The translations under genes were made by a program, and so were the position numbers. The notes under the pieces were generated by a model, which saw nothing but the letters and a program-made list of their open reading frames with translations, was not told the origin of the DNA and made no database searches. From the NCBI RefSeq assembly GCF_056746865.1, contig NZ_CM163382.1: 64,000 bases of DNA; one strand, written 5' to 3'. Positions 1-19,564 of the stretch are shown here, in pieces. Position 1 is the stretch's first letter. Each line of letters starts with the position of its first letter.

Positions 1-2
1 GG

Positions 3-1967
3 GCACAGAGTGAAGAAGAGGACGATTCGCCTGATACGCAAGAGGAAATCCAGACCTTACTGCTGCGTGCCACCCGCATGGATAACAGCGATACCCTGTG
101 GGATCACTTATTCGAAGATGAAAGCCAGCAAACTATATTACCCTCTGCACTGGCGCACTATTTTGCACAACTGCGGGGCGATTCCCCCGGAGATGCTCTC
201 AATCGTCAGCGCGAAGCCTTTATGGCCCGCTGGATTGGATGGGCGATGCAGCAAAATAATGGGGACGTGTTAGTCGTCTGCGGCGGCTGGCATGCTCCGG
301 CACTGGCAAAGATGTGGCGCGAATACACGCAGGAAATTAACACGCCGGAATTGCCCTCGCTGGCAGATGCCGTTACAGGTTGTTATCTCACCCCCTACAG
401 TGAAAAGCGCCTTGATGTGCTGGCAGGATACCTTTCCGGTATGCCTGCCCCGGTCTGGCAAAACTGGTGCTGGCGGTGGGGCTTGCAGCAGGCAGGTGAA
501 CAACTGCTGAAAACGGTTCTTACCCGTTTGCGCCAGCACAAATTGCCCGCTTCTACCGCTGATATGGCTGCCGCTCATCTGCATGCGATGGCGCTGGCAC
601 AGTTGCGCGGTCATACACTACCGTTACGCACTGACTGGCTGGATGCCATAGCAGGCTCGCTGATTAAAGAAGCCTTGAACGCGCCGTTGCCGTGGAGCTA
701 TCGCGGAGTTATTCATCCCGATACCGATCCGATTCTGCTAACGTTGATAGACACATTAGCGGGTGACGGATTCGGTAAACTTGCCCCCTCTACGCCACAG
801 CCGCCTCTGCCAAAAGATGTCACCTGCGAACTGGAACGTACAGGAATCTCTTTTCCGGCGGAGCTTACCTTAAATCGCTTTACCCCCGATGGACTGGCGC
901 AAAGCCAGGTGCTGCATCGGTTGGCAATACTGGAGATTCCCGGCATTGTGCGCCAGCACGGAAGTACACTGACGCTTGCGGGTAACGGTGAAGAACAGTG
1001 GAAATTAACCCAGCCGCTTAGCCAGCATGCGGCATTAATTGAGGCCGCATGCTTTGGCGCCACACTCCAGGAAGCCGCACGTAATAAATTAGAAGCCGAT
1101 ATGCTGGACGCGGGTGGAATCGGCAGTATCACCACATGTCTTAGCCAGGCGGCGTTAGCGGGTCTGGCGTCCTTCAGTCAACAATTACTGGAGCAACTTA
1201 CATTATTAATCGCCCAGGAAAATCAGTTTGCCGAAATGGGCCAGGCGCTGGAAGTGCTATATGCCTTATGGCGGTTGGATGAAATTAGCGGTATGCAAGG
1301 CGCGCAGATATTACAAACGACATTATGCGCGGCCATCGATCGCACACTCTGGCTGTGTGAATCCAACGGCAGACCGGAGGAAAAGGAGTTTCACGCTCAC
1401 CTGCATAGCTGGCAGGCGCTTTGCCATATCCTGCGCGATCTACATAGCGGCGTTAATTTACCCGGCGTTTCGCTTTCTGCGGCGGTGGCCTTACTGGAGC
1501 GCTGCAGTCAGGCGGTTCATGCCCCGGCACTGGATCGCGGCGCGGCTCTTGGCGCACTGATGCGTCTGGAACATCCCAACGCCAGTGCCGAAGCGGCGCT
1601 GACGATGCTGGCGCAATTATCCCCGGCACAATCCGGCGAGGCGCTGCACGGTTTGCTGGCGCTGGCCCGCCATCAACTGGCCTGTCAGCCGGCATTTATC
1701 GCCGGTTTCAGTAGTCATTTAAATCAACTGAGTGATGCCGATTTTATTAACGCCCTGCCCGATTTACGCGCGGCGATGGCCTGGCTACCGCCACGAGAAC
1801 GCGGGACGCTGGCGCATCAGGTGCTTGAGCATTACCAGCTCGCACAGCTTCCCGTTTCAGCGCTGCAAATGCCGTTGCATTGTCCACCGCAAGCCATTGC
1901 ACATCATCAACAACTCGAACAGCAGGCACTGGGATCGCTGCAACACTGGGGAGTTTTCCATGTCTGA
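3..1967 (+). CDS. yehM: YehM-like protein, 5' partial (reading frame is open from the window edge; the N-terminal portion lies upstream)
   Basis: Long ORF with no stop from position 3 to 1967; its stop overlaps the yehP start (ATGTCTGA at 1960-1967); synteny with yehP/yehQ. Confidence 0.75.
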   Translation, partial: AQSEEEDDSPDTQEEIQTLLLRATRMDNSDTLWDHLFEDESQQTILPSALAHYFAQLRGDSPGDALNRQREAFMARWIGWAMQQNNGDVLVVCGGWHAPALAKMWREYTQEINTPELPSLADAVTGCYLTPYSEKRLDVLAGYLSGMPAPVWQNWCWRWGLQQAGEQLLKTVLTRLRQHKLPASTADMAAAHLHAMALAQLRGHTLPLRTDWLDAIAGSLIKEALNAPLPWSYRGVIHPDTDPILLTLIDTLAGDGFGKLAPSTPQPPLPKDVTCELERTGISFPAELTLNRFTPDGLAQSQVLHRLAILEIPGIVRQHGSTLTLAGNGEEQWKLTQPLSQHAALIEAACFGATLQEAARNKLEADMLDAGGIGSITTCLSQAALAGLASFSQQLLEQLTLLIAQENQFAEMGQALEVLYALWRLDEISGMQGAQILQTTLCAAIDRTLWLCESNGRPEEKEFHAHLHSWQALCHILRDLHSGVNLPGVSLSAAVALLERCSQAVHAPALDRGAALGALMRLEHPNASAEAALTMLAQLSPAQSGEALHGLLALARHQLACQPAFIAGFSSHLNQLSDADFINALPDLRAAMAWLPPRERGTLAHQVLEHYQLAQLPVSALQMPLHCPPQAIAHHQQLEQQALGSLQHWGVFHV

Positions 1968-3096
1968 ACTGAACGATCTTCTGACCACCCGTGAGCTACA
2001 ACGCTGGCGATTAATTCTTGGCGAAGCGGCAGAAACGACGCTTTGTGGGCTGGATGGCAATGCCCGGCAAATAGATCACGCGCTGGAGTGGCTGTATGGG
2101 CGCGATCCTGAACGGCTCCAGCGTGGTGAACGCTCCGGTGGATTAGGTGGCTCAAATCTCACTACCCCTGAGTGGATCAACAGTATTCACACGCTGTTTC
2201 CGCAACAGGTGATTGAGCGGCTGGAAAGCGATGCCGTACTGCGCTACGGCATTGAAGATGTGGTGACGAATCTCGACGTGCTGGAACGTATGCAGCCTTC
2301 TGAAAGCCTGCTACGCGCCGTTTTGCACACCAAACATCTGATGAATCCCGAAGTGCTGGCTGCCGCCCGCCGGATAGTGCGCCAGGTTGTTGAAGAAATT
2401 ATGGCGCGACTGGCAAAGGAAGTTCGCCAGGCTTTTTCTGGTGTCCGCGATCGCCGCCGTCGCTCATTTATTCCACTGGCGCGTAATTTCGATTTCAAAA
2501 GTACGCTGCGTGCCAACCTGCAACACTGGCATCCGCAACACGGCAAGTTGTATATCGAATCCCCCCGCTTTAACAGCCGTATTAAGCGCCATAGCGATCA
2601 ATGGCAACTGGTCTTACTGGTTGATCAAAGCGGATCGATGGTTGACTCGGTGATCCACTCAGCGGTGATGGCGGCCTGTTTATGGCAGTTACCCGGCATT
2701 CGTACCCATCTGGTGGCGTTTGACACAAGCGTCGTTGATCTCACGGCAGACGTTGCTGATCCGGTAGAGTTATTAATGAAAGTACAACTGGGCGGCGGGA
2801 CCAATATCGCCAGTGCCGTGGAGTATGGTCGGCAACTTATTGAACAACCAGCGAAAAGTGTCATTATCCTCGTGAGCGATTTTTATGAAGGGGGTTCATC
2901 ATCCATGCTGACGCATCAGGTGAAAAAGTGTGTCCAGAGCGGCATCAAAGTGCTGGGACTGGCGGCGCTCGATAGCACCGCAACGCCTTGCTATGACCGC
3001 GATATGGCCCTGACGCTGGTTAATGTCGGCGCACAAATAGCCGCGATGACGCCGGGCGAACTCGCTACCTGGCTTGCGGAGAATTTGCAGTCATGA
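1960..3096 (+). CDS. yehP: von Willebrand factor A (VWA) domain protein with MIDAS motif
   Basis: 378-aa ORF starting at the internal ATG 1960 (MSELNDLLTT...); DxSxS MIDAS motif (LLVDQSGSM) visible in translation; coupled to flanking genes. Confidence 0.8.
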   Translation: MSELNDLLTTRELQRWRLILGEAAETTLCGLDGNARQIDHALEWLYGRDPERLQRGERSGGLGGSNLTTPEWINSIHTLFPQQVIERLESDAVLRYGIEDVVTNLDVLERMQPSESLLRAVLHTKHLMNPEVLAAARRIVRQVVEEIMARLAKEVRQAFSGVRDRRRRSFIPLARNFDFKSTLRANLQHWHPQHGKLYIESPRFNSRIKRHSDQWQLVLLVDQSGSMVDSVIHSAVMAACLWQLPGIRTHLVAFDTSVVDLTADVADPVELLMKVQLGGGTNIASAVEYGRQLIEQPAKSVIILVSDFYEGGSSSMLTHQVKKCVQSGIKVLGLAALDSTATPCYDRDMALTLVNVGAQIAAMTPGELATWLAENLQS

Positions 3097-5093
3097 ATTC
3101 ACTACGTCCGGAATTATTAGAACTCACGCCGCAGGCCCTGACGGCGTTAAGCAATGCCGGTTTTGTTAAGCGCAGTCTTAAGGAACTGGAAAATGGCAAC
3201 GTCCCGGAGATCAGCCATGAGAACGGCGCTTTAATCGCCACCTTCAGTGACGGTGTCCGCACCCAGCTGGCGAACGGTCAGGCACTGAAAGAGGCTCAGT
3301 GCAGCTGCGGGGCCAGCGGCATGTGCCGCCATCGCGTGATGCTGGTTTTAAGTTATCAGCGACTTTGCGCCACCACCCAGCCTACGGAAAAAGAAGAAGA
3401 GTGGGATCCGGCAATCTGGCTGGAAGAACTGGCTACCCTTCCCGATGCCACCCGCAAACGCGCACAGGCGCTGGTCGCTAAAGGCATCACCATTGAGTTG
3501 TTCTGTACGCCGGGCGAAATTCCCTCTGCCCGCTTACCGATGAGCGATGTGCGTTTTTATTCCCGCAGCAGTATTCGTTTCGCCCGTTGTGATTGTATTG
3601 ACGGCACACTTTGCGAACATGTCGTACTGGCTGTGCAGGCCTTCGTCGAGGCCAAAACTCAGCAAGCGGAATTTACTCATTTAATCTGGCAGATGCGCAG
3701 CGAACACGTCACACCATCTGACGATCCGTTTGCCAGCGAAGAGGGCAACGCGTGTCGTCAATATGTTCAGCAATTAAGTCAGGCATTATGGCTGGGCGGC
3801 ATCAGCCAGCCGCCAATCCATTACGAGGCCGCTTTCAGCCGCGCACAGCAGACGGCGGAACGCTGCAACTGGCGATGGGTGAGTGAATCGCTACGGCAAC
3901 TGCGCGCCAGCGTTGATGCCTTCCACGCCCGCGCCAGCCACTATCATGCCGGAGAATGCTTACGTCAGCTTGCGGCATTAAACAGTCGATTAAATTGCGC
4001 ACAAGAGATGGCCCGGCGCGACAGTATCGGTGAAGTTCCTCCTGTACCGTGGCGCACGGTCGTTGGCGCTGGCATTGCCGGAGAAGCAAAGCTTGATCAT
4101 CTGCGGCTGGTGTCTTTAGGTATGCGTTGCTGGCAGGATATTGAGCAGTATGGTTTACGCATCTGGTTCACCGATCCCGACACCGGCAGTATTTTGCATC
4201 TTTCGCGTAGTTGGCCGAGAAGCGAACAAGAAAACGCTCCCGCTGCAAAACGTCGGCTGTTTAGTTTTCAGGCTGGCGCACTGGCAGGTGGGCAAATTGT
4301 TTCACAAGCAGCAAAACGCAGTGCCGATGGCGAACTGCTATTAGCTACCCGCAACCGCTTGAGTAGTGTTGTTCCACTGTCGCCAGACGCCTGGCAAATG
4401 TTGAGTGCGCCGCTGCGCCAGCCAGGCATTGTGGCTTTGCGGGAATATTTACGCCAGCGTCCCCCCGCCTGCATACGACCACTCAACCAGGTCGATAACT
4501 TATTTATTCTGCCGGTCGCTGAGTGTATTTCGCTCGGTTGGGATAGCAGCCGCCAGACACTGGATGCGCAGGTCATTAGCGGCGAAGGGGAAGATAATGT
4601 GCTGACGTTATCCCTTCCGGCATCTGCCTGTTCTCCTTTTGCCGTTGAACGCATGGCGGCGCTTTTGCAACAAACAGACGACCCCGTGAGTCTGGTTTCT
4701 GGCTTTGTCAGCTTTGTAGAGGGGCAATTGACACTGGAACCACGGGTGATGATGACAAAAACCCGCGCCTGGGCGCTGGACGCAGAAACTGCGCCTGTGG
4801 CACCGCTACCTTCTGCCAGCGTTTTGCCTGTGCCGTCTACCGCTCATCAGTTGCTGATGCGCTGCCAGGCGTTACTTATTCAACTGCTCCATAACGGCTG
4901 GCGCTATCAGGAACAGAGTGCTATTGGTCAGGCAGAGTTGCTGGCGAATGACCTCACCGCGGTCGGTTTTTATCGGCTGGCACATGTGTTGGCACAATTT
5001 CGTAATACAGAAAGCGAGGCACGGGTAGAAGCAATGAATAACGGTGTTTTGATTTGCGAACAATTATTCCCCATGCTTCAGCAACAAGGATGA
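3093..5093 (+). CDS. yehQ: SWIM zinc-finger protein
   Basis: 666-aa ORF; two CxCx5CxH SWIM signatures (CSCGASGMCRH and CDCIDGTLCEH); ATGA overlap with yehP stop. Exact start not verified. Confidence 0.75.
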   Translation: MNSLRPELLELTPQALTALSNAGFVKRSLKELENGNVPEISHENGALIATFSDGVRTQLANGQALKEAQCSCGASGMCRHRVMLVLSYQRLCATTQPTEKEEEWDPAIWLEELATLPDATRKRAQALVAKGITIELFCTPGEIPSARLPMSDVRFYSRSSIRFARCDCIDGTLCEHVVLAVQAFVEAKTQQAEFTHLIWQMRSEHVTPSDDPFASEEGNACRQYVQQLSQALWLGGISQPPIHYEAAFSRAQQTAERCNWRWVSESLRQLRASVDAFHARASHYHAGECLRQLAALNSRLNCAQEMARRDSIGEVPPVPWRTVVGAGIAGEAKLDHLRLVSLGMRCWQDIEQYGLRIWFTDPDTGSILHLSRSWPRSEQENAPAAKRRLFSFQAGALAGGQIVSQAAKRSADGELLLATRNRLSSVVPLSPDAWQMLSAPLRQPGIVALREYLRQRPPACIRPLNQVDNLFILPVAECISLGWDSSRQTLDAQVISGEGEDNVLTLSLPASACSPFAVERMAALLQQTDDPVSLVSGFVSFVEGQLTLEPRVMMTKTRAWALDAETAPVAPLPSASVLPVPSTAHQLLMRCQALLIQLLHNGWRYQEQSAIGQAELLANDLTAVGFYRLAHVLAQFRNTESEARVEAMNNGVLICEQLFPMLQQQG

Positions 5094-5217
5094 AATAGTG
5101 CTTTTTACTAAGAGTTCCACTCCAGTTCCGGACTGCTCACGCCACGGTATTAGGCATATCCTATATAGCCCCTGGTGAGAGTCACCAGTTTCTTGATTAA
5201 ATAAAATGGAGTTTTAC

Positions 5218-5679
5218 ATGAAGGCTTTCAATAAGCTGTTTTCCCTCGTTGTTGCATCTGTTCTGGTTTTCTCTCTTGCTGGCTGCGGTGACAAAGAAGA
5301 ATCGAAAAAATTCAGCGCCAATCTGAACGGTACTGAAATTGCCATTACCTATGTCTACAAAGGTGACAAGGTGCTTAAGCAATCTTCTGAAACCAAAATT
5401 CAATTTGCCTCCATTGGTGCAACCACCAAAGAAGATGCTGCCAAGACACTTGAGCCGTTAAGCGCCAAATACAAAAACATCGCGGGTGTTGAAGAAAAAT
5501 TAACCTATACCGATACTTACGCGCAGGAAAACGTGACTATCGATATGGAAAAAGTGGATTTTAAAGCCCTGCAGGGTATTTCAGGAATCAACGTTTCTGC
5601 TGAAGATGCCAAAAAAGGTATCACTATGGCGCAAATGGAACTGGTGATGAAAGCCGCTGGTTTTAAAGAAGTGAAATAA
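5218..5679 (+). CDS. yehR: lipoprotein (DUF1307), lipobox LAGC
   Basis: ORF with signal peptide and LAGCGD lipobox; start chosen at MKAFNKLF. Confidence 0.75.
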   Translation: MKAFNKLFSLVVASVLVFSLAGCGDKEESKKFSANLNGTEIAITYVYKGDKVLKQSSETKIQFASIGATTKEDAAKTLEPLSAKYKNIAGVEEKLTYTDTYAQENVTIDMEKVDFKALQGISGINVSAEDAKKGITMAQMELVMKAAGFKEVK

Positions 5680-5720
5680 TCTGTCGGCGGCCATGTTTTT
5701 GCATGGCCGCCATACCCGTC

Positions 5721-6191
5721 TTAGCTTTTCTTCACATGCTGGCGCGCTGCCAGTCCACGCAGAAAATAACGTAAAAATTGATCGCCGCATTCGCGGAAGT
5801 TTTTATGATCCGGTGCACGCATCATCGCCGTAATTTCCGGCATCGAAACGCGGAACTGCTGTTCGGTAAGGATCGCCAGAATGTCATCGGTTTTCAGCGA
5901 AAACGCGATGCGTAATTTTTTCAGCACGATGTTGTTATTAATGCGACGTTCCGGCTCCAGTGCCGGAGCAGACTCATCCTTGCCGCGTTTTTCATAAATC
6001 AGGCCATTGAGGAATGACGACAAAACAATGTCCGGACAACGCTGAAAACCCTCTTCGTCTTCTTTACGTAGCCAGACGGCGATCTGTTCCGCGGTGGCTT
6101 CGACATTACCCAGCGCCAGAATACGCACCAGGTCATTATTATTGGCTTTCAAAATGTAGCGCACGCTGCGCAGAATATCGTTACTTAGCAT
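5721..6191 (-). CDS. yehS: DUF1456 family protein
   Basis: 156-aa ORF from internal Met MLSNDILRSV...; conserved position next to btsR. Confidence 0.7.
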   Translation of the reverse strand: MLSNDILRSVRYILKANNNDLVRILALGNVEATAEQIAVWLRKEDEEGFQRCPDIVLSSFLNGLIYEKRGKDESAPALEPERRINNNIVLKKLRIAFSLKTDDILAILTEQQFRVSMPEITAMMRAPDHKNFRECGDQFLRYFLRGLAARQHVKKS

Positions 6192-6237
6192 GAGGCCTTC
6201 AGGTGTTGATGAGGCAAAAAGCCATTTTAGCAGTCTT

Positions 6238-6957
6238 TTAAAGGCCAATCGCCTCTTTTAAGCTTTTCAGATAACGGCGGCTGACCGGCACGGTTAAGCC
6301 ATTACGCAAAATCAACTCGGCCTGGCCGTTATCTTCCAGACGAATCTCCTGTAAATGCGCGAGGTTAACCAGATACTGACGATGGCAGCGCAGTAGTGGT
6401 GTACGACTTTCCAGGGTACGTAATGTCAATTCGGTAAAGCCCTCTTTCCCTTCGTGGCTGGTAACGTAGACACCGCTCATCCGACTGCTGACAAATGCCA
6501 CATCTTTCATTTGCAGCAAATAAATCCGACTATGCCCCGTACAAGGGATAAACTTCAGCGCCTGTTGATTTTCCGGTAACAGCGAAACATCCTGCTTGCT
6601 GCGCTCCTGACGCAATCGCGCCAGCGTTTTTTCCAGTCGCGCTTCATCAATTGGCTTCAGCAGATAATCAAAGGCATGTTCTTCAAAGGCTTTAATAGCG
6701 TATTCGTCAAACGCGGTGAGAAAAACGATATACGGTCGATGTTCGGGGTCGAGCATCCCCACCATTTCCAGACCACTGATGCGCGGCATCTGGATATCGA
6801 GAAACAGCACATCCGGGCGCAGTTTATGCACCGCGCCGATCCCTTCTACGGCGTTTGAACACTCTCCAACGATTTCAATATCGCTCTGCTCCTGCAAAAA
6901 TACGCGCAGGTTCTCCCGTGCAAGCGGTTCATCATCGACAATTAAGACTTTAATCAT
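6238..6957 (-). CDS. btsR: LytTR-family response regulator (pyruvate-responsive two-component system)
   Basis: 239-aa [19 protein letters not shown]... with receiver domain and C-terminal LytTR domain; 4-nt overlap with the upstream kinase gene. Confidence 0.85.
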
Positions 6958-8639
6958 GCCTCGTCCCTCCATGGTAGTCGTAACGTTATTCGGGTGTAAC
7001 AATCAGGCTCACAGGCGACGCTTATCCCATAGTCATCGCCAAACCGTTCACGTAAACGCTTATCCACCAGATTCATCCCCAGCCCACTGGCATTGGTTAC
7101 CGGTTGATACAAACCGGCATTGTCTTCGATCTCCAGCATCAAATGTTGCCCCTCACGTCGGGCGCTGATCGCCACTCGCCCTGTATCCAGCAGTTGTGAT
7201 GTCCCATGTTTAATGGCGTTTTCCACTATCGGTTGCAGGGTAAACGCGGGCAATTGCTGCTGGGATAATTCTTGCGGAATAGCAATATTGACCTGCAACC
7301 GCGACTGGAAGCGCGCCTTTTCAATTTGCAGATAAGCGTTCACATGTTCAATTTCGTCGGCGAGAGTAACAAACTCCGAAGGCCGCTTTAAGTTTTTGCG
7401 GAAAAAAGTGGAAAGATACTGCACCAGCTGGCTGGCCTGTTCGCTGTCGCGGCGGATCACCGCTTTAATGGTGTTAAGCGCATTAAACAAAAAATGGGGG
7501 TTCACCTGGGCGTGAAGCAGTTTGATCTCTGACTGGGTGAGCATCGCTTTTTGCCGCTCATATTGCCCGGCGAGGATCTGCGCCGAAAGCAGTTGCGCAA
7601 TCCCCTCACCCAGCGTGCGATTGATTGAACTGAATAAACGGTTTTTGGCTTCATACAATTTGATGGTACCCATCACCCGCTGATTTTCACCACGCAACGG
7701 AATTACCAGCGTCGACCCCAGTTTGCATTGCGGATGCAAAGAGCAACGATAAGGTACTTCGTTGCCATCAGCGTAGACCACTTCACCGGTTTCAATCGCT
7801 TTTAAGGTGTAAGTCGAAGAAATCGGTTTGCCGGGTAAATGGTGATCGTCACCAATTCCGGTAAAGGCCAGCAATTTCTCTCGATCGGTAATCGCGACTG
7901 CACCAATATCCAGCTCCTGATACAGCACCTGTGCCACTTTCATGCTGTTCACTTCGTTAAACCCCTGGCGCAAAATGCCTTCCGTCGAGGCAGCCACTTT
8001 TAGCGCAGTGGCAGAAAAAGCCGAAGTGTATTTTTCAAACATCGCGCGTTTATCGAGCAATATACGCATAAACAGCGCCGCGCCGACGGTATTGGTGACC
8101 ATCATTGGCGCAGCAATATTACTCACCAGACGCACCGCATCTTCATAAGGTCGGGCGATTGCCAGGATGATCAACATTTGCACCATTTCAGCGACGAACG
8201 TGACGGCACCGGCGGTAATGGGGTTAAAGACTTTATCAGTGCGCCCGCGACGGATCAGGATGCTGTGTACCAGGCCGCCGAGCAACCCTTCAACGATGGT
8301 CGAGATCATGCAACTTAGCGCGGTCATGCCCCCCATCGAATATCGATGTAACCCGCCGGTCAGACCAACCAGCCCACCGACGACCGGACCGCCGAGTAAG
8401 CCGCCCATTACCGCGCCTATCGCACGGGTATTGGCAATAGAATCGTCAATGTGCAACCCAAACCAGGTGCCCATGATGCAGAAGATGGAAAAGACGATGT
8501 AGCAGAGAAATTTATGCGGCAGACGAACCGTGACCTGCATTAACGGTATGAATAATGGCGTTTTACTCATTAACCACGCAATGACTAAAAAAACGCACAT
8601 CTGCTGAAGCAGCAGCAACACCAGATTAAAATCGTACAT
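6954..8639 (-). CDS. btsS: LytS-type sensor histidine kinase
   Basis: 561-aa ORF with multi-TM N-terminus and H-box region ([10 protein letters not shown]); coupled to btsR. Confidence 0.85.
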
Positions 8640-8860
8640 ACCCGCAAACCACACTTCCCTTTAAAACGCGTAACATACATTGCCTGCGTTTAACTTTCTT
8701 TGAACTCTTGCAGAAAAATGAGAATTCGTGAGTACGATCACTCAAAATCGCCTGGCAAAAATAAAATCACCCTATAGATGCACAAAAAACGGGCAAAACT
8801 ACCTGGTTCGCAAAACTGCGTCTAAAGTTAAACCGGGACCTCGCGAGCAAGGGTGAGACG

Positions 8861-9592
8861 ATGGCGCTTTACACAATTGGTGAAGTGGCGTTGCTTTGTG
8901 ATATTAACCCTGTCACGTTACGCGCGTGGCAGAGGCGTTACGGATTGCTGAAACCGCAACGGACAGACGGCGGCCATCGGCTGTTCAACGATGCCGATAT
9001 TGACCGGATCCGCGAGATCAAACGCTGGATCGACAACGGCGTGCAGGTCAGCAAAGTTAAAATGCTGCTCAGTAATGAAAATGTTGATGTGCAGAACGGC
9101 TGGCGCGATCAGCAAGAAACATTACTGACTTACCTGCAAAGCGGCAATCTGCATAGCCTGCGAACGTGGATCAAAGAGCGCGGTCAGGATTACCCCGCCC
9201 AGACGCTCACCACACATCTGTTTATTCCTCTGCGCCGACGACTTCAGTGCCAACAACCGACTCTCCAGGCGCTGCTGGCGATCCTCGACGGCGTACTGAT
9301 CAACTACATCGCCATTTGCCTGGCTTCGGCACGTAAAAAACAGGGTAAAGATGCGCTGGTGGTTGGCTGGAATATTCACGATACCACCCGTCTGTGGCTG
9401 GAGGGCTGGATTGCCAGTCAACAAGGATGGCGCATTGATGTCCTCGCCCACTCGCTCAATCAACTACGCCCTGAACTGTTCGAAGGCCGTACATTGCTGG
9501 TGTGGTGCGGTGAAAATCGAACCTCCGCCCAACAGCAGCAACTCACCAGTTGGCAGGAACAAGGCCATGATATTTTCCCACTCGGCATTTAA
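8861..9592 (+). CDS. mlrA: MerR-family transcriptional regulator (curli/csgD activator)
   Basis: 243-aa ORF with N-terminal MerR HTH (YTIGEVALLCDINPVTLRAWQRRYGLL). Confidence 0.85.
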   Translation: MALYTIGEVALLCDINPVTLRAWQRRYGLLKPQRTDGGHRLFNDADIDRIREIKRWIDNGVQVSKVKMLLSNENVDVQNGWRDQQETLLTYLQSGNLHSLRTWIKERGQDYPAQTLTTHLFIPLRRRLQCQQPTLQALLAILDGVLINYIAICLASARKKQGKDALVVGWNIHDTTRLWLEGWIASQQGWRIDVLAHSLNQLRPELFEGRTLLVWCGENRTSAQQQQLTSWQEQGHDIFPLGI

Positions 9593-9651
9593 TCATTCGT
9601 TAACAAATGCGCTTTACTGTACAATCCTTTCGTTAACATAAGGAGTGCATC

Positions 9652-9759
9652 ATGCGCATAGCTAAAATTGGGGTCATCGCCCTGTTCCTGTTTATGGCGT
9701 TAGGCGGAATTGGTGGCGTCATGCTCGCAGGTTATACCTTTATTTTGCGTGCTGGCTAA
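9652..9759 (+). CDS. yohO: small hydrophobic membrane protein (35 aa)
   Basis: Short [38 protein letters not shown] preceded by AGGAG RBS; below the 60-aa cutoff of the ORF track. Confidence 0.6.
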
Positions 9760-10471
9760 GCGCCTGCACCAGCCTTTCAAACAGGCGGTCTGCAATGATC
9801 GCCGCCAGTGCCACCAGTAACGCCCCCTGGATCACATACGCGGTATTAAATCCGCTAAGCCCGATGATGATGGGCGTACCCAGCGTGCTGGCCCCTACCG
9901 TTGAGGCGATCGTCGCCGTACCAATGTTGATAATCACCGAAGTTCGCACGCCCGCCAGAATCACCGGAGCCGCCAGCGGTAGCTCGACCTTACGCAGTCG
10001 CTGACCACGGCTCATTCCCATACCTTTCGCAACTTCTGTCACGCTGACATCAATCGCTCCCAGCCCGGCAAGTGTCGCCTGCAGGACGGGCAGCACGCCG
10101 TAAAGGATCAAGGCGATAATCGCGGGTTGCAGACCAAAGCCGATCACCGGAACGGCAATCGCCAGCACCGCAACGGGCGGAAAAGTCTGCCCAACGGCGG
10201 CAATAGTTTCCACCAGTGGGCGAAATTCCGCGCCCCACGGGCGAGTAACAATAATTCCGGCACCAGTACCAATGATCACCGCAAACAAACTCGAAATTCC
10301 CACCAGCCAGAAATGAGCCAGTGCCAGAGCTGCAAAGCTTTCCTGCTGATAAACGGGTCGTGGCAGTTGTGGGAACAAGGCAGCAAACAGCGGCTGGCTG
10401 TAAGGCAGCCAGAAAAGCAGTGCCACAAACAAAGCAATGAGCCAGAACAGCGGATCGCGCAACATCTTCAT
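9740..10471 (-). CDS. yehW: ABC transporter permease (osmoprotectant uptake)
   Basis: 243-aa multi-TM ORF; last gene of the osmF-yehYXW operon arrangement. Confidence 0.85.
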
Positions 10472-10475
10472 ACGC

Positions 10476-11402
10476 TTACGCCTCCACCAGCAGATCCTGA
10501 AAATGCAGCGTGCCGCAAGGCTGGCCCTGCGTGTTCACCACCGGCAGCACCTCGCATCCCCGCGCGACAAACAGGGAGAGCGCATCGCGTAGCGTCATCT
10601 CTTCTGCCAGTGCCTCACCTTCTGCCCGTTCTTCGCGACGCACGTAATCCGCCACACTACGTAACGAAAGCAGGCGGACACCCAGTTCACTATGCCCAAA
10701 AAACTGGCGGACAAAATCATTCGCCGGACGAGTCAGCATCGTCAGCGGATTGCCCTGCTGCACCACTTCACCGTGATCCATCAACACCAGATGTTCTGCC
10801 AGTCGTAGCGCCTCATCAATATCATGAGTGACCAGCACAATGGTACGCCCCAGCAAACGGTGTATGCGCGTCATCTCTTGTTGCAACGCGCCGCGCGTTA
10901 CCGGGTCCAGCGCGCCAAAAGGTTCATCCATCAGTAAGACTTGCGGATCGGCAGCCAGTGCGCGCGCCACTCCCACACGTTGCTGCTGACCACCGGAAAG
11001 CTGATGCGGATAACGCTCACGCAAATTTGGCTCCAACCCCAGTAGCGCCATTAATTCGTCGATACGATCGTCGATCCGCGCCCGTGACCATTTTTGTAAT
11101 TGCGGCACGGTGGCAATATTTTGCGCCACGCTCCAGTGGGGAAACAGGCCAATAGATTGAATGGCATAGCCCATCCGGCGGCGCAACTCCAGCACTGGCA
11201 GCGAGCGAATTTCTTCTCCGGCAAAGCGGATCACGCCATTGTCATGCTCCACCAGGCGGTTAATCATTTTCAGAGTGGTGGATTTACCGGAGCCTGATGT
11301 ACCAATCAGCACCGAAAAACTCCCCTCCTGAAAATTGAGATTGAGATCGTTAACGGCTTTTTGTATGCCGAACAGTTTGCTGACATGGCTAAATTCAATC
11401 AT
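10476..11402 (-). CDS. yehX: ABC transporter ATP-binding protein
   Basis: 308-aa ORF with Walker A (GTSGSGKST), ABC signature (LSGGQQQRV) and C-terminal CBS-like region. Confidence 0.9.
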
Positions 11403-16117: not shown

Positions 16118-17833
16118 ATGTCTTCCATGACAACAACTGATAATAAAGCCTTTTTGAATGAACTTGCCCGACTGGTGGGTTCTTCACACCTGCTCACCGA
16201 TCCCGCAAAAACGGCCCGCTATCGCAAGGGCTTCCGTTCTGGTCAGGGCGATGCACTGGCTGTCGTTTTCCCTGGCTCACTACTGGAATTGTGGCGGGTG
16301 CTGAAAGCCTGCGTCACCGCCGACAAAATTATTCTGATGCAGGCAGCCAATACAGGTCTGACCGAAGGCTCGACGCCAAACGGTAACGACTATGATCGCG
16401 ATATCGTGATCATCAGCACCCTGCGTCTCGACAAGCTGCACGTTCTTGGCAAGGGCGAACAGGTGCTGGCCTATCCGGGCACCACGCTTTATTCGCTGGA
16501 AAAAGCCCTCAAACCGCTGGGACGCGAACCGCACTCGGTGATTGGCTCATCGTGTATAGGCGCATCGGTCATCGGCGGTATTTGTAACAACTCCGGCGGC
16601 TCGCTGGTGCAGCGTGGCCCGGCGTATACCGAAATGTCGTTATTCGCGCGTATAAATGAAGACGGCAAACTGACGCTGGTGAACCATCTGGGGATTGATC
16701 TGGGCGAAACGCCGGAGCAGATCCTTAGCAAGCTGGATGACGATCGCATCAAAGATGACGATGTGCGCCACGATGGTCGTCACGCCCACGATTATGACTA
16801 TGTCCACCGCGTTCGTGATATTGAAGCCGACACGCCCGCACGTTATAACGCCGATCCGGATCGGTTATTTGAATCTTCTGGTTGCGCCGGGAAGCTGGCC
16901 GTCTTTGCGGTACGTCTTGATACCTTCGAAGCGGAAAAAAATCAGCAGGTGTTTTATATCGGCACCAACCAGCCAGAAGTACTGACCGAAATCCGCCGTC
17001 ATATTCTGGCTAATTTCGAAAATCTGCCGGTTGCCGGGGAATATATGCACCGGGATATCTACGATATTGCGGAAAAATACGGCAAAGACACCTTCCTGAT
17101 GATTGATAAGTTAGGCAGCGACAAGATGCCGTTCTTCTTTAATCTCAAGGGGCGCACCGATGCGATGCTGGAGAAAGTGAAATTCTTCCGTCCGCATTTT
17201 ACCGACCGTGCGATGCAAAAATTCGGTCACCTGTTCCCCAGCCATTTACCGCCGCGCATGAAAAACTGGCGCGATAAATACGAGCATCATCTGCTGTTAA
17301 AAATGGCGGGCGATGGCGTCGGTGAAGCCAAATCGTGGCTGGTGGATTATTTCAAACAGGCCGAAGGCGATTTCTTTGTCTGTACGCCGGAGGAAGGTAG
17401 CAAAGCGTTTTTACACCGTTTCGCCGCTGCGGGCGCAGCAATTCGTTATCAGGCGGTGCATTCCGATGAAGTCGAAGACATTCTGGCACTGGATATCGCT
17501 CTGCGGCGTAACGACACCGAGTGGTATGAGCATTTACCGCCGGAAATCGACAGCCAGCTGGTGCACAAGCTCTATTACGGCCATTTTATGTGCTATGTCT
17601 TCCATCAGGATTACATCGTTAAAAAAGGCGTGGATGTGCATGCGTTGAAAGAACAGATGCTGGAACTGCTGCAGCAGCGTGGCGCGCAATATCCTGCCGA
17701 ACATAACGTCGGTCATTTGTATAAAGCACCGGAGACGTTGCAGAAGTTTTATCGCGAGAACGATCCGACCAACAGTATGAATCCGGGGATCGGTAAAACC
17801 AGTAAGCGGAAAAACTGGCAGGAAGTGGAGTAA
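16118..17833 (+). CDS. dld: FAD-dependent D-lactate dehydrogenase (quinone)
   Basis: 571-aa ORF from MSSMTTTDNKAF... Confidence 0.9.
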   Translation: MSSMTTTDNKAFLNELARLVGSSHLLTDPAKTARYRKGFRSGQGDALAVVFPGSLLELWRVLKACVTADKIILMQAANTGLTEGSTPNGNDYDRDIVIISTLRLDKLHVLGKGEQVLAYPGTTLYSLEKALKPLGREPHSVIGSSCIGASVIGGICNNSGGSLVQRGPAYTEMSLFARINEDGKLTLVNHLGIDLGETPEQILSKLDDDRIKDDDVRHDGRHAHDYDYVHRVRDIEADTPARYNADPDRLFESSGCAGKLAVFAVRLDTFEAEKNQQVFYIGTNQPEVLTEIRRHILANFENLPVAGEYMHRDIYDIAEKYGKDTFLMIDKLGSDKMPFFFNLKGRTDAMLEKVKFFRPHFTDRAMQKFGHLFPSHLPPRMKNWRDKYEHHLLLKMAGDGVGEAKSWLVDYFKQAEGDFFVCTPEEGSKAFLHRFAAAGAAIRYQAVHSDEVEDILALDIALRRNDTEWYEHLPPEIDSQLVHKLYYGHFMCYVFHQDYIVKKGVDVHALKEQMLELLQQRGAQYPAEHNVGHLYKAPETLQKFYRENDPTNSMNPGIGKTSKRKNWQEVE

Positions 17834-17840
17834 AAATTAC

Positions 17841-17862
17841 GGATGGCAGAGTATCGCCATCC
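17841..17862. terminator. Hairpin between convergent dld and pbpG (possible bidirectional terminator)
   Basis: GGATGGC-AGAGTATC-GCCATCC inverted repeat. Confidence 0.45.
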
Positions 17863-17870
17863 GAATTCAC

Positions 17871-18803
17871 TTAATCGTTCTGTGCCGTCTGCCCCGCCGC
17901 CGCCATTTGGGCGGCTTTTTGTTTTTTATAGCTCAACGCTGCTGCCGGAACAGGCATCACTTTACCGGTCTCAATCCAGGTACGCAGGCGGCTGGCATCG
18001 GCAAAATGGGTATATTTGCCAAACGCGTCCATCACTACCAGCGCCACCGGTTTATTATTGATAACCGTACGCATCACCAGACAATGGCCCGCCGCATTGG
18101 TAAAGCCGGTTTTGGTTAACTGAATATTCCAGTTATCGCGATACACCAGATGGTTAGTATTGCGGAACGGCAGCGTATACGTCGGGTTAGAGAAGGTTGC
18201 CATATCTTCCCGGGTGGTACTTAACTGCCCGATCAACGGATATTGTTTGCTGGCAATGAGCAGTTTGGTTAAGTCACGGGCGGTTGAAACGTTATGCACC
18301 GACAATCCGGTCGGTTCAACAAAGCGCGTGTTGTTCATTCCGAGCGATTTCGCTTTCGCATTCATCGCCTTAATAAAGGCTTTGTAACCACCGGGATAAT
18401 GGTGCGCAAGGCTTGCCGCCGCGCGGTTTTCTGAAGACATCAGCGCCAGCAACAGCATATCTTTACGGCTGATTTCGCTATTCAGTCGTACGCGCGAATA
18501 GACCCCTTTCATCTCCGGCGTCTGGCTGATATCCACTTTTAGTTTTTCATCCAGCGGCAGTCGCGCATCCAGCACGACCATCGCGGTCATTAATTTGCTG
18601 ATAGACGCAATCGGACGCACCAGATCCGGGTGGTTCGAATAGATCACTTTGTTGGTATTCAGATCAACAATCATCGCGCTACCGGAGGCAATTTCCGGCT
18701 GTGAAGCGGTGGTAGCGGCTGCCGTTTTCGCAACGGCCTGCGGTGCCAAAGGCACAGCCAGCATCAGGGCCAGGCTAAATAAAGAAACTCGAAATTTCGG
18801 CAT
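17871..18803 (-). CDS. pbpG: D-alanyl-D-alanine endopeptidase (PBP7)
   Basis: 310-aa ORF with signal peptide and SxxK active-site motif (SISKLMT). Confidence 0.9.
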
Positions 18804-18976
18804 GATGAGCATTCAGATAGTGGTTCACGCGCACGGGTTGCGCACCGCCGGAGTAAGGATTTACTGAGGCTAGCGACGCCATCATAACGAGCAAAAAGTG
18901 CGATCGTCAAAGGAGAATCGTGAGGAAATGCTGCATTGCTGACATTTACGCCAGCAATGCAACACAAAAGTACTTT

Positions 18977-19564
18977 CTAGAACAAACGATAACCGTAGCC
19001 CCATAGTATAACGGTAAGGGCGAGCAGCACTTCCAGCACCAGCACGCCAATCGCCAGCGTCGAACTGGAGAAGCTAAGGCCTTCCTCTTTGTTGATATTC
19101 AGGAAGCTCGGAATACCGAGATAAAGCAGGTAGCCGGTGTAAAACAGCGCCACCGTGCCGACCAGCGCACACAACCAGACCAGTGGATAAAGCGCCACCA
19201 GACCGCTTAAAAACAGCGGAGTTGCAACGTAGCCCGCGAAGACCATGCAGTGCGCAAGTGATGGACGTTGCGGATAATTGCGCGCCATCCACCAGATGAC
19301 CCGCCCCATCACCGCGACCCCAGCCAGCATAACGCCATAAAACAAGACAGCCAGCGCCAGTCCGGTAAACCAGGATAACTTCAGGATAGTGCCATCGCCA
19401 AAATTCCAGCCAATCTGTGTAGTGCCAATGAAGGCGCAAATCACCGGAATCGCCGCCATCAGCAAAACGTGGTGGGTGTAATGGTGAGAAATCGTTTCGT
19501 TTTCGCGATTAATCACCTGCATTTCACGATCGGGATGGGAAAACAGTCCCCAGACATGGCTCAT
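18977..19564 (-). CDS. yohC: Yip1-family inner membrane protein
   Basis: 195-aa multi-TM ORF. Confidence 0.7.
   Translation of the reverse strand: MSHVWGLFSHPDREMQVINRENETISHHYTHHVLLMAAIPVICAFIGTTQIGWNFGDGTILKLSWFTGLALAVLFYGVMLAGVAVMGRVIWWMARNYPQRPSLAHCMVFAGYVATPLFLSGLVALYPLVWLCALVGTVALFYTGYLLYLGIPSFLNINKEEGLSFSSSTLAIGVLVLEVLLALTVILWGYGYRLF

What the first reader, a model, noticed from the sequence alone, without database searches (positions are those of the whole stretch)
1..5093. Conserved but functionally unassigned VWA/MIDAS + double-SWIM module (yehM-yehP-yehQ), translationally coupled
Three consecutive genes with overlapping stop/start codons (ATGTCTGA at 1960-1967; ATGA at 3093-3096) imply one functional unit. 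YehP carries a clear MIDAS motif (DQSGS). YehQ carries two CxCx5CxH SWIM zinc-finger signatures. From established knowledge of MoxR-VWA systems, VWA proteins usually work with MoxR-type AAA+ ATPases (here presumably yehL, upstream of the window) as remodelling modules, and SWIM domains bind DNA or protein. I know of no experimentally assigned function for this module, so it is the best candidate for an undescribed system in the window. The function is inference.
Basis: partly seen in the sequence, partly recalled or inferred. Interest (0 to 1): 0.55.

Follow-up and report, generated by a model that had tools for sequence, protein, structure and literature searches.

The report
Uncharacterised five-gene MoxR-VWA-SWIM cassette
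The E. coli genes yehM-yehP-yehQ are real and tightly coupled, and they are the 3' part of a widespread five-gene ATPase machine of unknown function whose parts look built to recognise DNA; it is a known but unsolved operon rather than a new discovery.

Summary
The window is E. coli chromosome. It holds yehM (5' end cut off), yehP and yehQ with the stated ATGTCTGA and ATGA overlaps, a DQSGS MIDAS motif and two CxCx5CxH SWIM motifs.

The unit is larger than described. Across Proteobacteria, Myxococcota, Actinomycetota and Acidobacteriota, yehQ homologues sit in a self-contained cassette of AAA_5, DUF5682, VWA_CoxE, YehQ and one to three DUF4132 giants, most with an N-terminal WGR domain. Gene order permutes, YehM-YehP fusions occur, and the flanking genes are not conserved.

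A confident AlphaFold model shows YehQ as two SWIM modules, a helical bundle, a tandem OB fold resembling RPA70, HIN and Teb1, and a further helical bundle. Catalytic and metal-binding residues in YehL, YehP and YehM are invariant.

No defence-system, NCBIfam, PDB or literature assignment exists. E. coli molR, the first DUF4132 gene, is a listed SOS gene.

My best reading, as inference, is a DNA-structure-sensing MoxR-VWA remodelling complex. In K-12, molR and yehQ are pseudogenes, which may explain the lack of phenotypes.

This is a new variant of a known kind, of moderate interest.

The parts
1..1967 (+). yehM, 3' 655 codons (the full gene is 759 aa; the first ~104 codons lie upstream of the window). 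DUF5682 protein with an N-terminal alpha/beta domain carrying invariant His/Glu/Asp/Cys residues and a C-terminal alpha-solenoid.
   Evidence: RefSeq annotation. Pfam DUF5682 E = 8e-98. AF2 model pLDDT 87.7. Invariant G8 R10 H11 H12 C16 E35 H51 D101 E143 G199 G200 H202 in 31-38 homologues. Foldseek finds only TPR/HEAT-like solenoids.
1960..3096 (+). yehP, 378 aa. N-terminal helical region followed by a VWA_CoxE domain with a complete MIDAS site.
   Evidence: Pfam VWA_CoxE E = 1.8e-70. D222, S224, S226, T281 and D307 are invariant in 80 homologues. Its start overlaps the yehM stop by 8 nt.
2623..2637 (+). MIDAS motif DQSGS (YehP residues 222-226).
   Evidence: Read from the sequence; conservation.
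3093..5093 (+). yehQ, 666 aa and full length in this strain. Domain order: SWIM module 1, SWIM module 2, four-helix bundle, tandem OB fold, C-terminal helical bundle.
3300..3332 (+). SWIM1 zinc-ligand motif C70-x-C72-x5-C78-x-H80.
3588..3620 (+). SWIM2 motif C166-x-C168-x5-C174-x-H176.
   Evidence: Pfam SWIM E = 0.12. Intact in 51/59 homologues and lost in some actinobacterial homologues.
4065..4775 (+). Predicted tandem OB-fold region of YehQ (residues ~325-561).
5172..5198 (+). Terminator-like hairpin plus T-tract 79 nt after the yehQ stop; the likely end of the yehLMPQ transcription unit.
   Evidence: Consensus scan; pattern match only.

Best explanation
yehM-yehP-yehQ are three subunits of a self-contained five-component machine. 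The other two components are YehL, a MoxR/AAA_5 ATPase, and one or more giant DUF4132 proteins, usually WGR-DUF4132 (in E. coli, molR and its paralogues, including yehI).

Proposed mechanism:
- Shown: YehL is predicted to be an active AAA+ ATPase. YehP carries a complete MIDAS site. YehM and YehP are fused in some lineages, so they act together.
- Inferred: YehP bridges the YehL ring to a partner through its MIDAS site, as in other MoxR-VWA pairs and in midasin. YehM acts as scaffold, and its invariant His/Glu/Asp/Cys N-domain may be a metal-dependent enzyme.
- Inferred: YehQ (zinc SWIM modules plus an RPA-like tandem OB fold) and the WGR domain of the DUF4132 proteins recognise a nucleic-acid structure such as ssDNA, nicks or ends. 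ATP hydrolysis then remodels, loads or removes the bound complex.
- Inferred biological role: stress-linked genome maintenance or surveillance of aberrant or foreign DNA.
For: Composition and linkage:
- Of 77 loci that carry all of L, M, P and Q, 72 also carry DUF4132 within 10 kb. They span Gamma-, Beta- and Alphaproteobacteria, Myxococcota, Geobacterales, Actinomycetota and Acidobacteriota.
- Gene order permutes while the gene content stays the same. DUF4132 comes first in E. coli and Streptomyces, second in L003, third in Agrobacterium vitis, and last in Burkholderia. Start/stop overlaps are kept.
- A DUF5682+VWA_CoxE fusion protein occurs in L003-L005.

Active sites:
- YehL Walker A GEPGTAKS, E156/E157, N203 and R218/R219 are invariant in 77 homologues. 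The YehP MIDAS residues are invariant in 80.
- YehM N-domain residues are invariant.
- dN/dS is 0.05-0.11 between E. coli alleles.

Pointers to nucleic acid:
- The YehQ tandem OB fold.
- WGR is present in 24/38 linked DUF4132 proteins, and the WGR profile hits the PARP3 WGR domain.
- A LigA-like adenylation+OB+BRCT+WGR gene lies directly upstream of the cassette in L003.
- molR is on the LexA-regulon list (PMC6590174), and its LexA-like box is present at L092 4440-4459.
- DUF4132 and WGR genes are DdrO-regulated in Deinococcus radiodurans (bioRxiv 10.1101/2021.07.07.451423).

Self-contained nature: no flanking gene family is conserved beyond closely related genera, at most within one family or order.
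Against: - No experiment links any of these proteins to DNA.
- The OB-fold matches are weak by E-value (best 2e-3), and the fold is known only from a prediction. OB, SWIM and WGR domains can all bind proteins instead of nucleic acid.
- The LexA-like box appears only upstream of E. coli molR and in Intestinirhabdus. It is absent upstream of cassettes in other genera and upstream of yehL.
- yehL is separated from molR-yehI-yehK by a terminator-like hairpin, so co-induction with SOS is not shown.
- No nuclease, helicase or other recognised DNA-processing domain was found.
- Whether the Deinococcus genes belong to such a cassette was not checked.
- The LigA-WGR neighbour is seen in only one metagenomic lineage.
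Confidence: 0.35

Rival explanations
1. Anti-phage or anti-mobile-element defence system. The paralogous DUF4132 giants act as sensors of invader molecules, and the MoxR-VWA engine activates an unidentified effector, possibly the YehM N-domain.
For: - The cassette is self-contained, its phyletic distribution is sporadic, and its genomic context varies.
- The number of DUF4132 paralogues varies from one to three, and their N-terminal domains vary (WGR or ankyrin).
- H-NS silences yehL and yehM, as for horizontally acquired genes (PMC3686432).
- It is occasionally carried on megaplasmids.
- It is repeatedly lost or pseudogenised: K-12 molR and yehQ, Shigella sonnei lineages (PMC12795559), and ST131 L1a (PMC9334617).
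- A type I toxin-antitoxin locus (zor-orz) sits next to it.
Against: - PADLOC gives 0 hits for all six proteins.
- The cassette is present at one fixed chromosomal site in 5361 of 5426 complete E. coli genomes, unlike typical patchy defence islands.
- The 30 flanking genes sampled from 11 genera are housekeeping or regulatory genes, not defence genes.
- It is under purifying, not diversifying, selection.
- No recognisable effector domain was found.
- It is absent from phage genomes.
Confidence: 0.2
2. Dedicated protein-maturation chaperone of the classical MoxR-VWA type, like RavA-ViaA, CbbQO or NorQD. Its client is a protein, perhaps the DUF4132 giants themselves. SWIM, OB and WGR serve as protein-binding modules.
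For: - All characterised MoxR-VWA pairs remodel or mature protein complexes (PMC3893208).
- YehP is a full-length VWA_CoxE match.
- The large alpha-solenoids in YehM and the DUF4132 proteins are typical protein-interaction scaffolds.
Against: - No conserved client gene lies outside the cassette.
- This reading does not explain the combination of WGR, tandem OB fold, the ligase fusion and the DNA-damage regulon membership of the partner genes.
Confidence: 0.2
3. Metal- or cofactor-centre insertion system related to CoxD-CoxE, tied to molybdenum metabolism as the historical name molR ('molybdate metabolism regulator') implies.
For: - YehP belongs to the Pfam family named after CoxE. YehL is an AAA_5 ATPase, and from memory, not checked here, CoxD is of the same type.
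- The molR name is still in use (PMC3950696).
- The invariant His/Cys/Glu/Asp cluster in the YehM N-domain could bind a metal.
Against: - No molybdoenzyme, cox, nor or cbb genes flank the cassette in any sampled taxon.
- The Deinococcus study saw no co-regulation with molybdenum-cofactor genes.
- molR is a pseudogene in K-12, although K-12 makes functional molybdoenzymes (the molybdoenzyme point is established knowledge).
Confidence: 0.08

Closest known systems
MoxR AAA+ / VWA chaperone pairs (RavA-ViaA, CoxD-CoxE, NorQ-NorD, CbbQ-CbbO); YehL is a named MoxR subfamily
   Same: An AAA_5/MoxR ATPase is encoded next to a VWA protein with an intact MIDAS site. YehP matches the CoxE-type VWA family over its full length.
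   Different: There is no adjacent client enzyme. Three further obligatory partners are unknown from other MoxR systems: DUF5682, SWIM-OB YehQ and WGR-DUF4132.
Midasin/Rea1 (eukaryotic ribosome-assembly AAA+ with a MIDAS domain)
   Same: The best PDB sequence hits for YehL are midasin AAA_5 modules (E = 3e-10). The logic is the same: an AAA_5 motor plus a MIDAS domain that grips a partner.
   Different: Midasin is a single 5000-aa chain with six fused AAA modules. Here the motor and the MIDAS domain are separate proteins, and the partners differ.
MoxR-vWA-beta-propeller / VMAP ternary conflict systems (Pfam bpMoxR)
   Same: A MoxR plus vWA core embedded in a multi-gene cassette with large accessory proteins. 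YehL gives a weak bpMoxR hit (E = 0.002).
   Different: No beta-propeller or VMAP protein is present. The bpMoxR match is far weaker than the AAA_5 match, and the accessory proteins are unrelated.
RPA70 / Teb1 / POT1 / HIN-domain tandem OB folds
   Same: YehQ residues ~325-561 are predicted to form two consecutive OB folds that superpose on these DNA-binding modules.
   Different: Sequence identity is only 8-13% and E-values are weak. No DNA binding has been shown, and the region is embedded between SWIM modules and helical bundles.
SWIM-domain proteins (ZSWIM8 substrate receptor; from memory, also Shu2/SWS1 recombination mediators and MuDR/FAR1)
   Different: YehQ has two SWIM modules in tandem and a bacterial MoxR-VWA context. 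The second module is dispensable in some lineages.
PARP-type WGR domains (partner proteins molR and its paralogues)
   Same: An N-terminal WGR domain is present in 24/38 cassette-linked DUF4132 proteins, and the profile hits the PARP3 WGR domain.
   Different: There is no PARP catalytic domain. WGR is fused to a >1000-aa helical protein ending in DUF4132, and these genes lie outside the window.

Membership tests
MoxR-VWA system (YehL subfamily) | MoxR-type AAA+ (AAA_5) ATPase gene adjacent to the VWA gene | tested here: met
   yehL ends 10 bp before yehM in the identical genome. Pfam AAA_5 E = 2.6e-34. Adjacent in 77 of 90 loci, with most exceptions being truncated contigs.
MoxR-VWA system (YehL subfamily) | VWA protein with an intact MIDAS site (DxSxS...T...D) | tested here: met
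   D222, S224, S226, T281 and D307 are invariant in 80 homologues. VWA_CoxE E = 1.8e-70.
MoxR-VWA system (YehL subfamily) | Intact ATPase motifs (Walker A, Walker B, sensor, Arg finger) | tested here: met
   GEPGTAKS, E156/E157, N203 and R218/R219 are invariant in 77 homologues. Assigning these residues to the motifs is my own reading.
MoxR-VWA system (YehL subfamily) | Physical ATPase-VWA interaction and stimulation of the ATPase | not testable with these tools
   Needs biochemistry or multimer modelling.
SWIM zinc-finger proteins | CxCxnCxH zinc-ligand signature within a SWIM fold | tested here: met
CoxD/CoxE-like metallocentre maturation systems | Encoded beside the client metalloenzyme genes | tested here: not met
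   No cox, nor, cbb or molybdoenzyme genes appear in the flanks of any sampled locus, and the flanks are not conserved.
Known or candidate anti-phage defence systems (PADLOC-DB 2.0) | Protein matches a defence-system HMM | tested here: not met
   0 hits for YehL, YehM, YehP, YehQ, YehI and YehK at E <= 0.01.
Known or candidate anti-phage defence systems (PADLOC-DB 2.0) | Enrichment next to known defence genes (defence islands) | tested here: inconclusive
   Only 30 flanking proteins from 11 genera were annotated, with NCBIfam rather than PADLOC. None was a defence gene. No statistical enrichment test was done.
MoxR-vWA-beta-propeller / VMAP ternary systems | bpMoxR-type ATPase plus a beta-propeller or VMAP third component | tested here: not met
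   bpMoxR is only a weak hit (E = 0.002 against AAA_5 at 2.6e-34). No propeller or VMAP gene is in the cassette.
TIKI/TraB/PrgY/ChaN/erythromycin-esterase superfamily (YehM N-domain) | Profile-level similarity including the paired GxxH...E motifs | tested here: inconclusive
   The motifs look alike by eye (G-x-R-H-H...L-I-E-G-P and C-G-G-x-H). However, hhalign against E. coli YbaP and a YbaP-family profile gives probability below 1%. Only 1 of 31 members hits Erythro_esteras, at E = 0.06. The reference profile was shallow (identity >= 65%). No fold search was made on the isolated domain.
RPA-like tandem OB-fold nucleic-acid binders (YehQ 325-561) | Two consecutive OB folds that superpose on DBD-A/B-type modules | tested here: met
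RPA-like tandem OB-fold nucleic-acid binders (YehQ 325-561) | Binds ssDNA or dsDNA | not testable with these tools
   Needs EMSA or a structure with DNA.

The most novel reading that the evidence does not exclude
The cassette (WGR-DUF4132, YehL, YehM, YehP, YehQ) is a previously unrecognised class of DNA-structure-sensing AAA+/MIDAS machine, a bacterial 'midasin for DNA'. On this reading, WGR and the SWIM-OB modules detect breaks, ssDNA or invading DNA. The MoxR-VWA engine then loads, activates or strips a complex, possibly using a new metal-dependent enzyme in the YehM N-domain. It would act in DNA repair or in immunity. The function has been missed because E. coli K-12 carries pseudogenes in two of the components.
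Probability: 0.3. Interest if true: 0.75.

Novelty: new variant of a known kind. Interest (0 to 1): 0.5.

Why it matters
YehL is one of only two MoxR ATPases in E. coli and defines one of the seven MoxR subfamilies, yet no function is known for it.

This analysis shows that its operon is part of a conserved five-protein cassette spanning several phyla. The accessory proteins carry DNA-recognition hallmarks: WGR, SWIM and a tandem OB fold. That turns a vague 'unknown operon' into a testable hypothesis.

It also gives a practical reason for the lack of phenotypes. The standard K-12 background has molR frameshifted and yehQ truncated. Natural isolates such as the source of this window carry the whole set intact, and the window allele of yehQ is full length.

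If the DNA-directed reading is right, it would add a new type of client to the MoxR-VWA family and possibly a new repair or immunity pathway.

Tried and rejected
1. YehM N-domain as a TIKI/TraB-like metalloprotease. The motif resemblance was not backed by hhalign, Pfam or NCBIfam. I keep it only as a lead.
2. Conserved SOS regulation. A LexA-box scan upstream of DUF4132 and yehL genes in all loci found a box only in E. coli and Intestinirhabdus, so I rejected this as a general feature.
3. Defence-system membership. PADLOC gave no hits, the cassette is not phage-borne, and the sampled flanks are not defence genes.
4. A conserved client gene in the flanks. Clustering 452 flanking ORFs found nothing shared beyond closely related genera, at most within one family or order.
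5. Diversifying selection. yehMPQ is more diverged among E. coli genomes than btsSR-mlrA, but dN/dS is 0.05-0.11 and dS resembles that of yehX and osmF. This is an ordinary recombination mosaic, not positive selection.
6. PDB sequence and profile searches for YehM, YehP, YehQ and DUF4132. Only the WGR domain matched.
7. The whole-chain Foldseek search of YehM was swamped by the alpha-solenoid and said nothing about the N-domain.
It succeeded with 13 sequences.
9. Whether the Deinococcus DUF4132 gene sits in such a cassette could not be checked. There was no Deinococcus hit in the plasmid collection.


Full report
**What is there**

The first 5093 bases of the window are 100% identical to E. 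coli strain 118UI. They match 5361 of 5426 complete E. coli genomes, almost always once and on the chromosome. RefSeq annotates them as yehM (DUF5682 family), yehP (VWA domain) and yehQ (SWIM zinc-finger family).

Reading the sequence confirms each stated detail.
- The yehM stop (TGA, 1965-1967) and the yehP start (ATG, 1960) form ATGTCTGA.
- The yehP stop and the yehQ start form ATGA at 3093-3096.
- Both starts are preceded by Shine-Dalgarno-like GGAG.
- YehP has DQSGS at residues 222-226.
- YehQ has C70xC72x5C78xH80 and C166xC168x5C174xH176.

Pfam supports the assignments: VWA_CoxE for YehP (E = 1.8e-70 over the full model), SWIM for YehQ (E ~ 1e-3 and 0.12) and DUF5682 for YehM (E = 8e-98). 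The window begins about 104 codons inside yehM.

**The unit is larger than the finding**

Upstream of yehL, strain 118UI has three large DUF4132 genes (molR-like paralogues and yehI) and the small gene yehK.

YehQ defines a full-length family of ~650 aa. It has 573 representative clusters at E <= 1e-10 among 1.84 billion representative proteins. I examined gene neighbourhoods of divergent members, 80 loci from a scan of species-representative genomes, and my own jackhmmer mapping of those loci.

The same five families travel together: DUF4132, AAA_5, DUF5682, VWA_CoxE and YehQ. All of L, M, P and Q are present in 77 of 90 loci; most of the others are truncated contigs or fusions. DUF4132 is present in 72 of those 77.

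The taxa include Enterobacterales, Xanthomonadales, Burkholderiales, Neisseriales, Hyphomicrobiales, Geobacterales, Myxococcota, Mycobacterium, Glycomyces, Streptomyces and Thermoanaerobaculia.

Gene order changes while gene content stays the same.
- DUF4132 comes first in E. coli and on a Streptomyces linear plasmid.
- It lies between the AAA gene and the DUF5682-VWA fusion in metagenomic locus L003.
- It lies between DUF5682 and VWA in Agrobacterium vitis, with overlapping stop and start codons.
- It comes last in Burkholderia.

In L003-L005, DUF5682 and VWA_CoxE are fused into one 1107-1148-aa protein. Of 38 cassette-linked DUF4132 proteins, 24 start with a WGR domain and one has ankyrin repeats instead. 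The WGR profile matches the PARP3 WGR domain in the PDB.

Flanking genes are not conserved beyond closely related genera, at most within one family or order. Where I could annotate them, they are ordinary regulators and housekeeping enzymes. The cassette is therefore self-contained.

**Anatomy of the proteins**

YehL keeps GEPGTAKS, E156/E157, N203 and R218/R219 in 77 homologues. YehP keeps the complete MIDAS set (D222, S224, S226, T281, D307) in 80.

The AlphaFold2 model of YehQ, built on a 59-sequence alignment, is confident (pLDDT 92.4, pTM 0.90). It shows:
- an N-terminal helix/sheet module ending in SWIM1;
- a second sheet ending in SWIM2;
- a four-helix bundle (residues 216-311);
- a beta-rich region (325-561) whose strand and helix order reads as two OB folds;
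- a C-terminal helical bundle (583-665).

SWIM1 is invariant in 59/59 homologues. SWIM2 is intact in 51/59 and has lost its ligands in some actinobacterial homologues.

The YehM model (pLDDT 87.7) has an N-terminal alpha/beta domain and a long alpha-solenoid. Foldseek sees only TPR/HEAT-like repeats. The N-domain carries an unusually invariant set of polar residues: G8, R10, H11, H12, C16, E35, H51, D101, E143, G199, G200 and H202. This suggests a metal or catalytic site.

By eye, these motifs resemble the paired GxxH...E motifs of the TraB/TIKI superfamily. Profile-profile comparison with E. coli YbaP and its relatives gave probabilities below 1%, and Pfam gave only one marginal erythromycin-esterase hit among 31 members. 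I therefore record this idea as untested in structure and unsupported in sequence.

**What is known**

The Houry laboratory lists YehL as one of seven MoxR subfamilies and as one of the two MoxR proteins of E. coli K-12. It attaches no function (PMC3893208).
- PADLOC has no model matching any of the six proteins.
- NCBIfam (June 2026) has no family for YehM, YehP, YehQ or YehI.
- The PDB holds no sequence relative of YehM or YehQ and only non-significant matches for YehP.
- Eight full-text searches found no functional study.

Scattered facts do exist.
- H-NS binds upstream of yehL, and yehL and yehM rise in an hns stpA mutant (PMC3686432).
- molR is activated by BglJ-RcsB (PMC3950696).
- molR is listed among LexA-regulated genes (PMC6590174). 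The LexA-like box AACTGGATAAAATTACAGGG lies just before its start codon in K-12.
- In Deinococcus radiodurans, a DUF4132 gene and a WGR gene are strongly derepressed when DdrO is depleted.
- yehP contains a reporter-validated +1 frameshift-prone site (PMC2790909), which is present in this window at 2818-2833.

**Population genetics in E. coli**

Most genomes match this window's yehMPQ at only 90-95% identity, whereas the adjacent btsSR-mlrA region matches at 95-99%. Against K-12, however, dN/dS is 0.05 for yehL, 0.10 for yehM, 0.07 for yehP and 0.11 for yehQ. dS is about 0.16, similar to yehX and osmF further downstream. These are functional genes in a recombination mosaic, not fast-evolving or decaying ones.

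K-12 is an exception. molR is frameshifted, and yehQ has a stop at codon 615 that removes the last helices. Shigella sonnei lineages have deleted yehL and yehM, and an ST131 sublineage carries a resistance transposon in the DUF4132 region. The largest YehQ sequence clusters are full length, at 666-667 aa.

**Interpretation**

Shown:
- a conserved, co-inherited, translationally coupled five-protein set;
- a predicted-active AAA+ motor and an intact MIDAS site;
- a YehM-YehP fusion in some lineages.

Inferred from established knowledge of MoxR-VWA pairs and of midasin: YehP links the YehL ring to a partner through its MIDAS site, and ATP hydrolysis remodels that partner.

Inferred from domain content: the partner or target involves nucleic acid. 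The pointers are WGR, SWIM, the tandem OB fold, the ligase-WGR neighbour in one lineage, and the damage-regulon membership of the DUF4132/WGR genes in two distant bacteria. I put this at about 0.35.

Its weak points are these.
- The OB-fold evidence is marginal.
- All three domain types can bind proteins.
- The LexA box is not conserved outside Escherichia and Intestinirhabdus.
- yehLMPQ appears to be a separate transcription unit behind a terminator-like hairpin.
- No DNA-processing enzyme domain was recognised.

The rival readings, in order of likelihood:
- a defence system (0.2). This fits the self-contained, sporadically distributed, H-NS-silenced, frequently lost cassette. It does not fit the near-universal fixed location in E. 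coli, the lack of PADLOC hits or the ordinary flanks.
- a classical protein-client chaperone (0.2).
- a molybdenum or other metal-centre insertion system, as the name molR implies (0.08). No client genes are ever adjacent.

**Verdict**

The operon itself is long known as an uncharacterised MoxR-VWA cluster.

This analysis adds the five-component definition, the predicted SWIM-SWIM-OB-OB architecture of YehQ, the invariant putative active site in YehM, and the point that K-12 is a natural double mutant. The system is a new variant of a known kind (MoxR-VWA systems), of moderate interest (0.5).

Noticed in passing
window 2818-2833 (yehP codons 287-291 plus the first base of codon 292): [quoted passage not shown] Frameshifting there would give a 303-aa product lacking the end of the VWA domain, including MIDAS residue D307.
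   Followed up: partly
L001 9405-10589 (upstream of the window, yehK-yehL intergenic region of strain 118UI): About 880 bp are inserted here relative to K-12. The insert consists of two tandem ~610-bp copies. Each has a minus-strand 29-codon ORF, MDTLTQKLTVLIAVLELLVALLRLIDLLK, which I recognise as the ZorO/ZorP type I toxin. A Shigella paper lists zorO next to yehL. K-12 keeps only a remnant.
   Followed up: partly
L092 (E. coli K-12) 4467-8262 and 17093-19093: In K-12, molR (the first DUF4132 gene) is frameshifted. yehQ has an internal stop at codon 615. The window's yehQ is full length at 666 aa. K-12-based screens therefore test an already crippled cassette.
   Followed up: yes
window 1-5093 compared with 5721-10800: yehMPQ matches most E. 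coli genomes at only 90-95% identity (3948 of 5363 records), while no record falls in that band for the neighbouring yehS-btsRS-mlrA-yehW stretch. dS is about twice that of yehR-mlrA but similar to yehX and osmF, and dN/dS is ~0.1, so this looks like a recombination mosaic.
   Followed up: yes
window 5172-5198: A terminator-like hairpin (CTGGTGAGAGTCACCAG followed by a T-rich tail) lies between yehQ and yehR.
   Followed up: no
L003 1-10001 (JGI metagenome 3300044952): A variant cassette has DUF5682 and VWA_CoxE fused in one protein and an ankyrin-DUF4132 protein. Directly upstream is a gene combining NAD-ligase adenylation, OB, BRCT and WGR domains.
   Followed up: partly
L082 9575-19148 and L067 1-12634: Two loci (a Deltaproteobacteria MAG and a Betaproteobacteria genome) have YehQ and DUF4132 but no recognisable YehL and YehM in the expected place. 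L067 still has YehP. They may be divergent or rearranged variants.
   Followed up: no
P0147 (857-aa YehQ homologue, likely actinobacterial): The N-terminal SWIM1 module is present three times in tandem, and the second SWIM site lacks its Cys and His ligands. This could be a genuine repeat expansion or an assembly artefact.
   Followed up: no
window 8861-9592 (mlrA/yehV); phage record AP000400.1: The VT1-Sakai prophage record contains yehP, yehQ and yehV at its end, apparently host flank deposited with the prophage. From memory, Stx1 prophage Sp15 integrates at yehV/mlrA. mlrA is an uninterrupted ORF in this window.
   Followed up: no
Literature: metG/DUF4132/yeh region of E. coli ST131: A large ST131 papGII+ sublineage (L1a, 184 isolates) carries the blaCTX-M-15 transposon TnMB1860 inserted in the DUF4132 region just upstream of this cassette (PMC9334617).
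   Followed up: no
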